Part shown: one piece after another, positions 1,727 to 11,288 of the stretch | How positions within the stretch are numbered: position 1 is the stretch's first letter | Layout: the number at the start of each line of letters is the position of its first letter | Assembly: GCA_951406725.2 (NCBI GenBank) | Contig: OX597822.1 | Span: 63,240,001 to 63,304,000 of the forward strand | Direction of reading: 5' to 3' | Source: Octopus vulgaris | Lineage: Eukaryota | Length of the DNA stretch: 64,000 nt | Made by a program: the position numbers and the translations under genes | The notes under the pieces: generated by a model | Told to the model about the DNA's origin: nothing | Databases searched by the model: none | What the model saw: the letters and a program-made list of their open reading frames with translations, nothing else

Positions 1727-1813
1727 TTTAAATCATTGTTTTTTGGATCATCTCAACAAAGTGAGAAAGAAAGTGCACCAGTGTTAGCCATAGATACTGA
1801 TGATGAAGATTAA
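1727..1813 (+). CDS. RAD9: Terminal coding exon of RAD9 (9-1-1 checkpoint clamp subunit); upstream exons lie outside the window
   Basis: Strong pyrimidine tract and TTACAG acceptor (CAG 1724-1726), then FKSLFFGSSQQSEKESAPVLAIDTDDED*. This aligns to the human RAD9A tail FRSLFFGS...SPVLAEDSEGEG (recalled). Confidence 0.85.
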   Translation, partial: FKSLFFGSSQQSEKESAPVLAIDTDDED

Positions 1814-3477
1814 TTTATCACTATAATTTACTCTACACCATTCCCAAAAGAAACAAACTTTTGTGAAAAGGAAGTTCATCTGTTTCTGTTTTGTTTGATG
1901 CCTAAATTATATACATATTTTTGTACGTATGTATGTATTTATATATATATATATATATATATATATATATATATATACATATATACGAAAATGTTTTATA
2001 AAAATTAGATTACAAGCATTGTTTTTAATTCAAACTATAAATGATTCATGTGATAAAGACTGGGTTTTAAAACCATTACAAGAACAAGCAAACAAAAATC
2101 ATACAACTGGCTAAGTAGGACTGTATAAATGGAATAGTAGCAAGCAGTTTGCAAAGGACAGTTCCAAAGTACAGTTGATTCTGATGAATTTGATATTGTT
2201 TTTGAAGAATTGAAATGTAATTTATTGAAACAGATCTTTGTTATAAAAAATGTGACATAACTTCAATGTATGTGGTTAGAAAAAAAAAAACCAAATAGAT
2301 GCCAGGATATATTTTCAAGCACTGTCGCATAGAATATATTCTAACAGAACAAAATCCAGGTCAGGTTGGATTGTTATCATTTCACTTCAAAATGTCATAA
2401 AAAGAAGCCTGAATCTCATAATTCCAATTCCTCTTGCCCTAAACCTTTAAGCTTTATGCTTATTTGCAGAAATCTATGAAGATTCCCTCCAGATTACCTT
2501 TTATATCATGACATGTTATGTATTGAAAAGGATTTTGTCTTAAAAAAAAAAAGCCCTATTTATTTTTAAGATTTTTTTCAAAAATTTTACATTTATTTTC
2601 CAAGAAAAAGTTGTTTTGTTTTCATTCAGCTAGATTTTGCACTTTTTGCTGCATGTGTGGCTGTGTGGTTAAAAAGTTCACTCCTCAAGCATATGGCTAC
2701 AAGTTCAGTCCCACAGCTGGGCAAGTGTCTTCTACTATAGCCCTGGACCAACAAAAATCCTTGTGAGTGGATTTGGTTACTGGAAAGCGAAAGAAGCTCA
2801 TTGTGTGTGTGTGTGTGTGTGTGTGTCACTGAATGTATGTGTGTGTGTCTCTCCTTGTCTTGACATCACATGATAATTCTAAATGATTATCACTTGTCAT
2901 ACAAGCAGTTTCACTCATCTCCAGTATTCTGCAAAAACATTTCCAGCCATGGAAAAATATTACTTTTCTTGGAAACAGGCAAAGGCTGGCAACAGGAAGG
3001 CCATCAGGCTGTAGAAAATCTGCCTCAGTAAAAGTGAATGCCAAAATGATGATAATGATGATATTAGCTTTTGATTAAAAGTCTGGAAATGGAATATATA
3101 TATATCATTATTATCCTAGATTTTATGTAAATTTCTGAAACAGGGATTCATCAAAAGTTATATTATGATTATATAAGATGTGTTTTTTATATTGAAAAGT
3201 ATGAATTCATCATTATTATTAAAATTATTTTTTTATAAATTTTGTGTAAATTTTATTATTTCGCCTTTCTCTAAGTGGCACAGCATTGCCTGAAGATTAC
3301 TAAACAATATTCAATAACTTCTGATTTCATATTATGATATAATGTTTGTTTCCCATTCATGTGATTCCGGGTTCAGTCCCATGATGTGACACCTTGGGTA
3401 AGTATCTACTATATCCCTGGACTGTCCAAAGCTTTTTGAGAAGATTTGGTCAACAGAAACTAAAAATAGCCAGTTGT

Positions 3478-4820
3478 GTGCATAGAGGAGTTCAAGACAG
3501 ATTGCCCCTGGGAGCTCCTCTATGCTGATGACCTGGCCCTCATAGCAGAATCACTACCAGAACTAGAGAAGAAATTTCAGGTGTGGAAGCAAGGTTTAGA
3601 ATTGAAGGGCCTTAGAGTCAATGTTGCAAAGACCAAAGTACTAGTAAGTAGGAAGGTGATCAAATCACAAACCCCTTCAGGTAGATGGCCCTGCTCAATC
3701 TGTAGAAAAGGTGTAGGTAGAAACTCCATAAGATGTACCCAGTGTAAGCTATGAACACATAAGAGGTGCAGCAACATCAAAGGAAGGTTAACCGGGATGA
3801 TAGTTTTTGTATGCGGTAGATGCACAGGGGCAATAAACACCACAGATACTCAGAAAACAGATTCCATCACATGCCAGTGGGAGAAACTAGAAGTAGTTGA
3901 TAGCTTCCACTACCTAGGTGATCAAGTTTGTTGTGGGGGTGGATGCTCAGAGAGTGCTACCACTAGAATAAAAATAACCTGGACAAAGTTCAGAAAGCTT
4001 CTACCCCTACGGGTGACAAAGGACCTCTCGCTCAGAGTGAAAGGTAGATTGTATGATGCATGTATGTGAACTGTCATGCTTCACAGCAGTAAAACATGGG
4101 CTGTGACTGCTAAAGCCATGTGTAAGCTTGAAAGAAATGAAGCTAGCATGATCCACAGGATGTGTAGTGTCAGTGTGCACACACGACAGTATAAGTGTCC
4201 TGAGAGAAATGTTGGACATAAGAAGCATCAGCTGTGGCGTGCAAGAGAGACGTTTGTGTTGGTATGGTCATGTACTATAGATGGATGAGGAGAGCTGTGT
4301 GAAGAAGTGCCACTCCCAAACAGTTGAAGGAATCCAGGGTAGAGGAAGACATGGGATGAGGTGGTGAAGCATGACCTTCAAACGTTGGGCCTCACAGAGG
4401 CAATGACTAGTGACCAAGACATCTGGAGATATGCTGTGACTAAGAAGACCCAGCAAATAAAGTAACCTACACCAGTGTTGCATAAGCAGCCCATTCAAAA
4501 GTACCTTGGATCATAGGGTGACATGCTGTGCTTGAGGAGACCTATTGAGTCAAGTACATCAACATCAAAATCAATTGGAAATTGTAGTTGTGATCCCCAT
4601 GCCAGTGGCATGTAAAATGCACCATCTGAACATGACCAATGCCAGCATGGCCTTGACTGGCTTCCGTGCCAGTGGCACATAAAAAGCACCCACTCCACTC
4701 TCAGAGTGGTTGGCGTTAGGAAGGGTATCCAGCTGTAGAAAGACTGCCTGATCAGACCCCAGTCGAACCATCCAACCCCATGCCAGCACGGAAAACTGAC
4801 GTTAAACAATGATGATGATA
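3478..4820 (+). mobile_element. Decayed 5'-truncated RTE-clade LINE (end of RT domain, Cys/His finger, 3' UTR, (GAT)n tail)
   Basis: WELLYADDL RT motif; CSIC...CTQC..(stop)THKRC...CGRC finger; FHYLG and LHSSKTW motifs; stops and frameshifts; tail ...GACGTTAAACAATGATGATG. Confidence 0.9.
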
Positions 4821-8639: not shown

Positions 8640-11205
8640 TCAAATAAATAATAACTTTATTGTTAAAATAAAATCCTTTTGTTGTAAACAAGTTGGATGT
8701 AACGTGGGTTTTATTTTAATTTAAAAAAAAAAAAAAAAGAATCATTTCATGAAAAGTCATGCTTTTGGGTGGGAAATGGAAAAAGTAAGGAAAATATTTG
8801 TTTTATTTCATTGGAATTTCTTAACTGCATGCTTTTTAATTGTGATAATTGGGTTGACATGTTAGCTACATTCTAACCATTTGCAACTTTCACTTATTGA
8901 ATCAAACACTTTTGGAGAAAAGCACAGTAAGAGATCATGCTCTACATACCAATTTCAGTCTGCAAACTAATGTTTAATAGTGATTTTTATTTAATTATTT
9001 ATACCTCTTTTCATATGCATATTGTATATTATGTATGTGCATGTATACATGTATCTGTGTTCTGGTTTCAGCAGTAAATATTCTAAATTTGTAATGAAAT
9101 ACACTGAGTACAGATATGTAAGAATGTGCATGAGTGATATTTTGCCATATGTTTCACACATTTCTGAAGCACCAAAAAAAAATGTATTGAGCTGTAAACA
9201 TACATATTTGTGTGTTCCAGATGAGTTCATAAAAAAGAAAAAAAAATCTGGTAAATAAGCACATCTATATTCTAGGAAGATTTATTTGTAAAATAAACAT
9301 GTTTGTTGTGATGTTGGTTTGGTCTGGAGGAAAGGGTTTCACCAATGGCATTTATAGGCCCTCCAAGACCAGTGAGATCAACACAGAACACTGTGTATTC
9401 TACATCAATAGTTACAAGTTGACAGCTGCTGCAGGAAAAAAACATAGACAGGGTGAAACAAGTGAATGGAAAGTACCTGAGGGTAGGTGACCCAAACCAG
9501 TCAGCTCTGAGGAGCACAGGCCACTATAGTAGCAGTAGAAAAGGCAGAGAGAGGAGACAGCCAACAAGTCTGTTGGTATGTGACTTCACGCCAATCAGTC
9601 AGGTGGGGTTTGGGGATGGAGGTATTTTTTGTTTTCCGGTTGGCTGTGGTTTATGATGTCTATATGTAAAGCAGTAGCACCATCCCAGATGGGGGACCAG
9701 TACTTCATTGTAGGTCTTACCTGAGTTGATTTCTTACCTTTGTATAAATATTTTGTTAGTCCACACTATTCCATAAGGAGCAGAAAGCCAGTTTCCCAGC
9801 CCTGTGCTCCTTACAGAGTAATATTTTTTGTATAAATATTTATATAGATTTAATTTCTTTATGGATAACTGAATGCAATTTCATATCATTTGTAATATAT
9901 TTTGCAGTATATTTTAAAAATTAGAGAAATTTCAACATACTCGCCACAGAAACATGAAAATGAGAAAATAAAATTTAAATTCCTGCCAAAAAGTTACAAT
10001 TGCTATTGTAATATATTCAGATGTAGAAAAAAAAAATCAATCCACAAAAACTTTGAAATTAAAAATGAAATAATAAAAAATAGAAAAAGAAAAATTAAAT
10101 ACTATACATAATTTTATTTTGTTCTTAACAGAAATGAAACTACCAGATTGGAACATGAATAATGAAAGATGACACCCGACCAAAGGACAAAATTTGCTTT
10201 GGTATCGATGAAGCTATTTGTAAAAAAAAAAGAAGGTATTAGAACATGAGAAATAAAATTTTAAAATAAATGGGGGTATGGGGAAAAACAAAAGAAATAA
10301 AAAAAAGATAAAAGAATAAGATAAAATAAAAAGTTCCAGGTGAAAAATAAGAATAAATTAAATAATGTTTTTGTCTTTTTTTCTTGGTTGTTTGTTTTGT
10401 TGTTGTTTTTTTGTTCAGGCAAAAGCTTCAGATCACAGGCAGAGAACAAATGCATATTTTTTTCTCAAGAAGAATTTAAAACAAAGGTTCTATTGCTAAA
10501 CACTGCTCTCCAAGACTTTTACTACTTCTCGTTACACACTTGACACTACCCGAGTTAGCAAATGCAAGCAGTGAAGCTTACAAACCAATTACACATATCA
10601 CAGAGTCTGTAAATAAATTGCAGTCTTTTTTTTAATTAACCGTAACTCACAGCTGCCAGGTTATAGAAACAGTTCCAGAAATGAAACTGCCCAAGTGAAT
10701 GGCCCTGTGTTTTTGAGTCTGCTGTCCATACAAGTTAAACGATTCTCCTAGTTACAAGAACGCAACTTTGTTATTTATCAGAGGTAAATAAACATGTCTA
10801 GATTACCGTGCCATCATAGCTAAAAGAAATCCAGAATTCTCAAGCACTGAGCTTCACTTACCAAACTCAGATTTATTGAATTATTTCTTTGCTTGTCACG
10901 CATTAATTTGTTTCATATGCATATATATATATATATATATATATATATATATCCTTTAGCTAAGCTGCTATATGTAACATAGACAAGTTATGTAACAGTT
11001 ACCTTTATTAAGCCATTACCAAACCAAGGAGACTTATATAGTGCTTGTTAGTGATGAAGTCAGTTATCTGTAGTGATTTCCACGTAACATCACTACACCA
11101 GCAAGCTTACATTAGCAGCAGACACATCCATAAATTTGAATTTTTCCTTCTGCATAATTTTTTTTCTTGAGCTCTTTCCACTCACCACCACCCTATCGTC
11201 TTTTG
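8640..11205 (-). other. Probable long 3' UTR of PPTC7
   Basis: TE-poor stretch directly after the stop codon, U-rich on the minus strand; candidate AATAAA signals (plus-strand TTTATT), e.g. 8656-8661. True 3' end unknown. Confidence 0.4.
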
Positions 11206-11288
11206 CTATACTTGTAGTGCTTCTTTTTCTGATTCTGTAAGGCTTGAAACTCGTGCTAGCACAACTGTAATGTCATCAGGTTTGCCAC
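11206..11288 (-). CDS. PPTC7: PPTC7 exon 6 (last coding exon): (G)[26 protein letters not shown]
   Basis: TTTTCGCAG acceptor; GGKPDDITV motif; TAG at 11206-11208; not in the ORF track. Confidence 0.95.

What the first reader, a model, noticed from the sequence alone, without database searches (positions are those of the whole stretch)
1727..11288. Hidden RAD9 terminal exon: RAD9-PPTC7 tail-to-tail pair apparently shared between a mollusc and human
Seen: a spliced 87-nt plus-strand exon encoding FKSLFFGS...PVLAIDTDDED*, with its stop about 9.4 kb from the PPTC7 stop on the opposite strand. Known (recalled): human RAD9B and PPTC7 are adjacent and convergent on 12q24.11. Inference: the linkage is ancestral to bilaterians and survived the extensive rearrangement of coleoid genomes, which suggests a constraint such as shared 3' or regulatory elements.
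Basis: partly seen in the sequence, partly recalled or inferred. Interest (0 to 1): 0.72.

Follow-up and report, generated by a model that had tools for sequence, protein, structure and literature searches.

The report
Ancient VPS29-RAD9-PPTC7 gene trio in octopus
This is the ordinary last exon of the octopus DNA-checkpoint gene RAD9, which sits in a three-gene neighbourhood (VPS29, RAD9, PPTC7) shared with many animals and already listed in published synteny tables, likely held together mainly by a promoter shared between VPS29 and RAD9.

Summary
Window 1727-1813 is exon 13 of 13 of an intact octopus RAD9 (463/467 identical to O. sinensis RAD9A), and RNA-like contigs splice into it. Its stop lies 9,393 bases from the stop of a six-exon PPTC7 on the other strand. 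Human and mouse VPS29/RAD9B are also head-to-head (184 and 218 bp). RAD9 and PPTC7 share a contig in 26 of 28 other lophotrochozoans, so the linkage is ancestral, not chance. It is not new: the trio is block 1522 ('Bilateria novel') in Robert 2022's supplement, and a 'Metazoan' block that includes Octopus bimaculoides in Schmidbaur 2022's supplement. The latter paper counts 275 such blocks surviving in squid. Shared 3' elements are not supported: about 5 kb of repeats separate the 3' ends, and PPTC7 detaches in several lineages. The best-supported constraint is a bidirectional VPS29/RAD9 promoter (inferred, not assayed), with PPTC7 a looser neighbour. Low interest.

The parts
1727..1813 (+). 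RAD9 exon 13 (last coding exon). Carries the second half of the KK|FKSLFF clamp-binding motif and the C-terminal VLAIDT-DDED motif, predicted to be the CK2/TOPBP1 site. Parts outside the window, on G000:C9: RAD9 exons 1-12 at 63,224,003-63,237,316 (+); the 267-base likely bidirectional promoter at 63,223,736-63,224,002; VPS29 at about 63,210,259-63,223,735 (-)
   Evidence: motif comparison with human RAD9A from passages of PMC6175577 and PMC12907562; upstream parts:
1814..2500 (+). RAD9 3' UTR, covered by RNA-like contigs at least to 2500; true end not determined (no AATAAA in 1814-3300, ATTAAA at 3074 and 3218)
   Evidence: table 8 (X6 record 29, X10 records 13-14, X2 record 22)
2470..2511 (+). 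In-frame AG acceptor inside the 3' UTR giving KSMKIPSRLPFIS*; used as last exon by the old O. bimaculoides model XP_014777887.1; no listed RNA joint into it
   Evidence: (joint table was cut)
3314..8313 (.). Repeat-rich spacer between the two 3' ends, including a decayed reverse-transcriptase fragment at 3470-4066
   Evidence: 500-bp bins 27-100% masked, 8 of 10 bins at 66% or more; RVT_1, E 1.9e-5, under the Pfam cut-off
8314..11205 (-). Nearly repeat-free AT-rich stretch, likely PPTC7 3' UTR, with AATAAA at 11009, 10877, 10118, 9286, 8807 and 8661
   Evidence: not checked with RNA
11206..11288 (-). PPTC7 exon 6 (last coding exon)
13091..52675 (-). PPTC7 exons 1-5: 52675-52450, 26210-26031, 20178-19980, 16120-15997, 13220-13091
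   Evidence: 313 of 313 identical to O. sinensis XP_029641640

Best explanation
The exon ends an intact RAD9 gene that is the middle member of an ancestral bilaterian trio, VPS29 head-to-head with RAD9 and RAD9 tail-to-tail with PPTC7, and the trio is likely held together mainly by one short promoter that would drive both VPS29 and RAD9. Shown: the gene structures, the 268-base spacing of the start codons, splicing of both first exons, and the linkage across phyla. Inferred: a break between VPS29 and RAD9 would have to fall within about 160-270 bases and would cut a shared promoter, so it is both rare and selected against. Also inferred: PPTC7 stays mostly by inertia, because the RAD9-PPTC7 interval is a small target in compact genomes and lophotrochozoans rearrange slowly, and it is lost or moved more often. 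The exon itself is predicted to supply RAD9's two tail motifs: the self-binding KxxLFF motif and the CK2-phosphorylated TOPBP1 docking site, with Thr in place of human Ser387.
For: VPS29 ATG|GT exon at -16265 and RAD9 ATG at -15997 (C9 position minus 63,240,000). VPS29 exon 1 is spliced to exon 2 in 3 of 4 runs and RAD9 exon 1 to exon 2 in 2 of 4; contigs of the two genes end 157 bases apart. The interval holds 13 CpG against a median of 2 in 204 unmasked windows of the region, of which 4 reach 13. Human RAD9B/VPS29 TSS distance is 184 bp and mouse 218 bp (supplement rows of PMC1487180). Among 80 metagenome loci with VPS29, RAD9 lies head-to-head in 5 (L015 and L022 are close relatives), with start codons 423, 435 and 821 bases apart in L015, L022 and L016, and at most about 1.0 and 1.3 kb in L069 and L075. 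VPS29+RAD9 are present in 5 of 5 species of block 1522, PPTC7 in 4 of 5. PPTC7 is absent from the 20 kb held of L016, lies convergent with VPS29 instead in L014, and is on another scaffold in Lottia. 5'-5' pairs are the commonest and best-kept class of ancient pairs (passages of PMC3514665).
Against: No promoter assay, TSS map or co-expression test was run; contigs cannot show starts or levels. No promoter motif is shared across the six intervals. Only the octopus ETS-like count exceeds shuffles (3 against 0.28 expected, p 0.004, 1 of 24 tests, two of the three hits overlapping). RAD9 was not found upstream of VPS29 in 6 of 11 intron-type loci with 2.6 kb or more upstream. In 5 of these the contig may end inside VPS29's first intron, but L079 has a P-type ATPase there, so the pair does break. 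I had no search left to score VPS29 adjacency across named genomes as I did for PPTC7, so 'VPS29 is the tighter link' rests on few cases. RAD9-PPTC7 is itself very stable (26 of 28), and L069 has the stops only about 455 bases apart, which leaves room for a 3' constraint in compact genomes.
Confidence: 0.6

Rival explanations
1. Neutral retention. All three are single-copy housekeeping genes with short intergenic intervals, so breakpoints rarely fall between them; no regulatory coupling is under selection.
For: Hundreds of ancient blocks persist in squid and scallop alike (275 and 216). The trio breaks in several lineages. No shared promoter motif. The other human neighbours are scattered in G000: TCTN family on C6, GPN3 and ARPC3 on C30.
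Against: In a 2.8-Gb genome whose introns here run to 26 kb, the VPS29-RAD9 gap stays at 267 bases while the RAD9-PPTC7 gap has taken up about 5 kb of repeats. It is under about 1.3 kb in human, mouse and 5 metagenome loci.
Confidence: 0.27
2. One reading: RAD9 and PPTC7 are tied by overlapping or shared 3' ends or by regulatory elements between them.
For: Same contig in 26 of 28 other lophotrochozoans, consecutive accessions or locus tags in 7. Stops about 455 bases apart in L069. A conserved 3' UTR overlap is described for the paralogue RAD9A with PPP1CA (passage of PMC1449890), so such overlaps occur in this family.
Against: Here 9.4 kb separate the stops, 46% of it masked as repeat, and PPTC7 has six AATAAA signals before the repeat belt. 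PPTC7 is detached or relocated in Acanthaster, Lottia, L014 and L016. 3'-3' orientations are less conserved than 5'-5' among ancient pairs.
Confidence: 0.1
3. Coincidence: octopus and human arrived at the adjacency independently.
For: Neither published table lists human in this block, and a single shared pair can arise by chance within conserved linkage groups (inference).
Against: Three genes lie in one block in centipede, hemichordate, brachiopod and oyster. The scallop trio is linked to amphioxus, sea urchin and octopus blocks. Human has VPS29/RAD9B head-to-head with PPTC7 next in the gene list.
Confidence: 0.02

Closest known systems
Microsyntenic block 1522, 'Bilateria novel' (Robert et al. 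2022, PMC8851819, supplementary file 4)
   Same: Same three orthogroups (VPS29, RAD9, PPTC7). 21 rows in Strigamia, Acanthaster, Saccoglossus, Lingula and Crassostrea gigas, with consecutive gene numbers in Strigamia, Lingula and Crassostrea.
   Different: No cephalopod or vertebrate row, and no orientation, promoter or RNA evidence. It carries a fourth, unnamed orthogroup (OG0009371) in three species, which I did not identify in G000.
'Metazoan' microsynteny network, blocks 5393/5392/3437/6247/7685 (Schmidbaur et al. 2022, PMC9023564, supplementary file 4)
   Same: Oyster EKC17992-94 and scallop XP_021346338/39/45 (38 = PPTC7 and 39 = RAD9) connect to an O. bimaculoides block on KQ420313, and to amphioxus and sea urchin blocks.
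   Different: Listed by ID only, without gene names. Neither human nor Euprymna is in the network. I could not map the seven O. bimaculoides IDs to names.
Human/mouse RAD9B-VPS29 head-to-head pair (Li et al. 2006, PMC1487180 supplements)
   Same: Divergent pair with 184/218 bp between starts; octopus has 268 bp between ATGs.
   Different: Octopus has a single RAD9 locus in the search of G000, with an RAD9A-like tail; vertebrates have RAD9A and RAD9B.
Co-regulated 5'-5' conserved ancient microsyntenic pairs, e.g. HSPE1-HSPD1 (Irimia et al. 2012, PMC3514665)
   Same: Unrelated housekeeping genes, divergent, under 1 kb apart, kept across phyla.
   Different: VPS29 (retromer) and RAD9 (9-1-1 clamp) share no known pathway (own knowledge), and co-expression is untested. 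Whether the pair is in Irimia's list is unknown: the supplement was not available.

Membership tests
RAD9 (9-1-1 clamp subunit) | Pfam Rad9 domain over the N-terminal ~270 aa in an open reading frame | tested here: met
   PF04139 over the cut-off on two exons of G000; E 5.6e-75 for the O. bimaculoides orthologue; 467-aa chain without internal stop
RAD9 (9-1-1 clamp subunit) | C-terminal TOPBP1-BRCT1 motif: hydrophobic -5/-4/-3, Asp -1, phospho-Ser/Thr with acidic residues after | tested here: met
   V-L-A-I-D-T-DDED against human V-L-A-E-D-S387, sequence match only; 55 of 150 homologues match a strict version of the motif in their last 30 residues
RAD9 (9-1-1 clamp subunit) | Phosphorylation of that residue and TOPBP1 binding | not testable with these tools
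   needs biochemistry
Ancient metazoan microsyntenic block (3 or more orthologues, up to 5 intervening genes, in two or more bilaterian clades) | Three orthologues within the gap limit in this genome | tested here: met
   VPS29, RAD9 and PPTC7 with no other gene found between them by exon scan and tblastn
Ancient metazoan microsyntenic block | Same block in protostomes and deuterostomes | tested here: met
   published tables; contig and accession comparison; L069 has the same order and orientation
Ancient metazoan microsyntenic block | Absent outside Bilateria (as 'Bilateria novel' implies) | tested here: inconclusive
   0 of 8 loci with an intron-less VPS29 start (fungus-like by inference) have RAD9 upstream; no cnidarian or sponge locus was identified
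Bidirectional promoter pair | Divergent genes with starts under 1 kb apart | tested here: met
   ATGs 268 bases apart; contig ends 157 bases apart
Bidirectional promoter pair | One element drives both directions; co-expression | not testable with these tools
   contigs give no strand, start or level
Genomic regulatory block | Developmental regulator plus bystander genes carrying its enhancers | tested here: not met
   none of the three genes is a developmental regulator; conserved non-coding elements were not searched
Conserved 3' cis-antisense pair (as RAD9A/PPP1CA) | Overlapping 3' UTRs | tested here: inconclusive
   9.4 kb with a repeat belt between the stops argues against it; no RNA was laid on 2500-11200

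The most novel reading that the evidence does not exclude
The VPS29/RAD9 interval is a functional bidirectional promoter kept since the last common bilaterian ancestor. It would make this trio one of the few cassettes with the same order and orientation in human, octopus and other phyla, and mark RAD9B's locus (not RAD9A's) as the one that kept the ancestral promoter after the vertebrate duplications. The explicit octopus-human link, the orientation and the 268-base spacing were not found in the papers searched.
Probability: 0.35. Interest if true: 0.35.

Novelty: already known. Interest (0 to 1): 0.17.

Why it matters
Little beyond a tidy example. The block is already catalogued, including for an octopus. 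It also shows that several public octopus RAD9 models lack the checkpoint-critical tail, which could mislead anyone comparing 9-1-1 signalling across animals.

Tried and rejected
(1) Pfam SpoIIE search of G000 for PPTC7 found nothing; PPTC7 was mapped with the O. sinensis protein instead. (2) No run was on record as RNA ('no RNA holder listed'); contigs were used only for what they bridge. X13 laid nothing on the promoter stretch, which is no evidence either way. (3) A weak RAD9-like tblastn hit upstream of VPS29 in L045 (1 of 259 queries) lies in a reverse-transcriptase ORF and scored under 2 bits with the RAD9 profile; rejected. A single weak hit in L063 was likewise not supported. (4) Alternative last exon at 2470 as a real tail-less isoform: only 1 of 150 homologues has that ending, the later O. 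bimaculoides model dropped it, and an X6 contig runs unspliced across it. Treated as a likely model artefact but not excluded, since 460 joints were not shown. (5) My first hand-set exon boundaries gave a broken frame; corrected by a GT-AG boundary search. (6) FAM216 search of G000 rang nowhere, controls included: uninformative. (7) Shared promoter motifs across six intervals: none. (8) Gene-name search of Schmidbaur's supplements found nothing; the block surfaced only through oyster accessions. (9) Irimia 2012 supplement unavailable; it may list the pair. (10) RefSeq accessions were not consecutive in 8 species where both were seen (Liolophura, Babylonia, H. asinina, H. rubra, P. vulgata, Lineus, Tubulanus, Mya). 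Counted as same contig only, not as adjacent. (11) Our-findings look-ups returned nothing.
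Full report
Coordinates. The window is G000:C9:63,240,001-63,304,000. Negative coordinates are C9 position minus 63,240,000. The genome is an Octopus: its RAD9 residues match the named O. vulgaris models P0273/P0274 where these differ from O. sinensis.

1. The observation. 1727-1813 is an 87-nt exon after an AG acceptor, reading FKSLFFGSSQQSEKESAPVLAIDTDDED*. The Pfam Rad9 family hit two exons 13 kb upstream, and tblastn with the O. bimaculoides protein recovered the rest. A GT-AG boundary search gave 13 exons, 1,404 nt, no internal stop, 463 of 467 residues identical to O. 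sinensis RAD9A. Of four runs laid on -7500..2500, X1 and X6 have single contigs joining exon 11 to a piece that starts exactly at 1727, and X2 has a piece that ends there and runs on; X10's piece was not among the rows shown. PPTC7 has six exons from 52675 to 11206, 313 of 313 identical to O. sinensis. The stops are 9,393 bases apart. The exon is annotated in O. sinensis and in 1 of 3 O. vulgaris models; the other five octopus models seen end elsewhere.

2. What the exon does. It completes the KK|FKSLFF motif, matching human RAD9A K359-F366, which binds the clamp's own front pocket (passages of PMC12907562). It ends in VLAIDT-DDED, matching human VLAEDS387, the CK2 site that docks on TOPBP1 BRCT1 (passages of PMC6175577). 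Function is inferred from these matches. 55 of 150 homologues carry a strict version of the terminal motif.

3. A third gene. An exon scan of 154 kb around the window found VPS29 on the - strand upstream, four coding exons from -16265 to about -29741. Its ATG-only first exon is at -16265, 268 bases from the RAD9 ATG at -15997. VPS29 exon 1 is spliced to exon 2 in 3 of 4 runs and RAD9 exon 1 to exon 2 in 2 of 4, and contigs of the two genes end 157 bases apart (contigs cannot give true starts). The interval has 13 CpG against a median of 2 in 204 unmasked windows, 4 of which reach 13. Human RAD9B (+) and VPS29 (-) have starts 184 bp apart and mouse 218 bp (supplement rows of PMC1487180; main text not read). 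A human gene table lists VPS29, RAD9B, PPTC7, TCTN1 in that order (PMC13409549); another list swaps RAD9B and PPTC7 (PMC10137185). PPTC7's human strand is recalled, not checked.

4. Outgroups. Of 28 non-octopus lophotrochozoans with both, 26 share a contig length or have consecutive accessions, 1 differs (Lottia) and 1 is unresolved (H. rufescens). Consecutive tags or accessions occur in 7: Solemya, Littorina, Patella caerulea, Pecten, Mizuhopecten, Biomphalaria glabrata and B. pfeifferi. Batillaria is 2 tags apart and Sinanodonta 13. The one vertebrate with both (Scyliorhinus, RAD9A-like) differs, as expected for the A paralogue (inference). A metagenome scan with VPS29 exon 2 kept 80 of 211 confirmed stretches. 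RAD9 lies head-to-head in 5 of these 80. That is 5 of 19 with at least 2.6 kb upstream: 5 of 11 whose VPS29 has the animal-type intron after the ATG, and 0 of 8 without it. L069 has the whole trio in the octopus order with stops about 455 bases apart. L016 (insect-like) keeps VPS29/RAD9 but has an endonuclease gene next and no PPTC7 in the 20 kb held. L014 has PPTC7 convergent with VPS29. L079 has an unrelated gene upstream of VPS29. Other human neighbours are elsewhere in G000: TCTN family on C6, GPN3 and ARPC3 on C30.

5. Already known. Robert et al. 2022 (PMC8851819; passages and rows of supplementary file 4, which was cut when stored, though the Bilateria section ends before the cut) list block 1522 'Bilateria novel' with these orthogroups in five species, none a vertebrate or cephalopod. 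Schmidbaur et al. 2022 (PMC9023564; passages and rows of file 4) list the oyster and scallop trios as 'Metazoan' blocks connected to O. bimaculoides, amphioxus and sea urchin, and report 275 ancient blocks retained in squid against 216 in scallop. Survival in coleoids is therefore common, and this case is on record by ID. In main texts I found no description of the trio: 0 papers hold rad9+vps29+synteny, and the 6 with RAD9B+PPTC7, 11 with three or more neighbours and 2 with Rad9b+Vps29+promoter look from their listings like association or expression gene lists (I opened passages of two). Irimia 2012's pair list could not be read and may include it. PMC13508932 (passages) does not name these genes in its main text; its supplements were not searched.

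6. Mechanism. Best reading (0.6): a short shared promoter holds VPS29 and RAD9 together, and PPTC7 follows loosely. The VPS29-RAD9 gap has stayed under about 1.3 kb in every case measured, even in this repeat-rich genome, whereas 46% of the RAD9-PPTC7 gap is repeat and PPTC7 is the member that drops out. This fits the enrichment of 5'-5' pairs among ancient pairs (passages of PMC3514665). Against it: no shared promoter motif, no expression test, at least one break of the pair (L079), and a thin sample for VPS29 compared with PPTC7.

7. Verdict. Interest 0.17.

Noticed in passing
window 2470-2511 (+): In-frame acceptor inside the RAD9 3' UTR whose 13 residues are identical to the end of the old O. 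bimaculoides model. If used, it would give a RAD9 without both tail motifs; no RNA joint seen in the rows shown.
   Followed up: partly
public models P0001, P0271-P0276, P0151, P0279, P0280: Five of seven octopus RAD9 models seen lack the true last exon, and one that has it skips the 105-nt exon 12. Three PPTC7 models skip exon 2 (window 26210-26031), and both O. bimaculoides ones read into the last intron.
   Followed up: partly
G000:C30:4,366,006-4,395,172 (L094-L097): GPN3 (-) and ARPC3 (+), neighbours of VPS29 on human 12q24, are a divergent pair about 12 kb apart on another octopus chromosome. In human I recall them as tandem; not checked.
   Followed up: partly
G000:C3:84,698,581-84,699,183 (L098): Intronless GPN-family open frame of 259 aa, best PDB match GPN3 at E 6e-49; may be GPN2 or a retrocopy.
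   Followed up: no
L003-L004, about -43919..-37313 (+): PSMB4 lies tail-to-tail with VPS29, about 7.6 kb between stops.
   Followed up: partly
L010:6215-6484 (-), just beyond the window's right end: Exon of a GNAT acetyltransferase, best PDB match diamine acetyltransferase 2 (E 5e-7), upstream of PPTC7 on the same strand.
   Followed up: partly
L075:10542-11675 (-): A RAD51-family gene lies a few kb beyond VPS29 in a contig that also has the VPS29/RAD9 head-to-head pair.
   Followed up: no
L014:688-6902: VPS29 and PPTC7 are convergent here, a locally shuffled version of the trio; RAD9 would lie off the contig's left end.
   Followed up: partly
window 40616-40912 (+) and L009:3378-3674 (+): Two near-identical transposase-like fragments (mariner-like by recall; no Pfam match for the window copy) in introns of PPTC7 and RAD9.
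   Followed up: no
window 60037-62224: About 2 kb of (TA/CA)-type microsatellite with 11% GC.
   Followed up: no
block 1522, orthogroup OG0009371: An unnamed fourth gene sits next to VPS29 in Acanthaster, Lingula and Crassostrea; not identified, and no such gene was seen between VPS29 and PSMB4 in G000.
   Followed up: no
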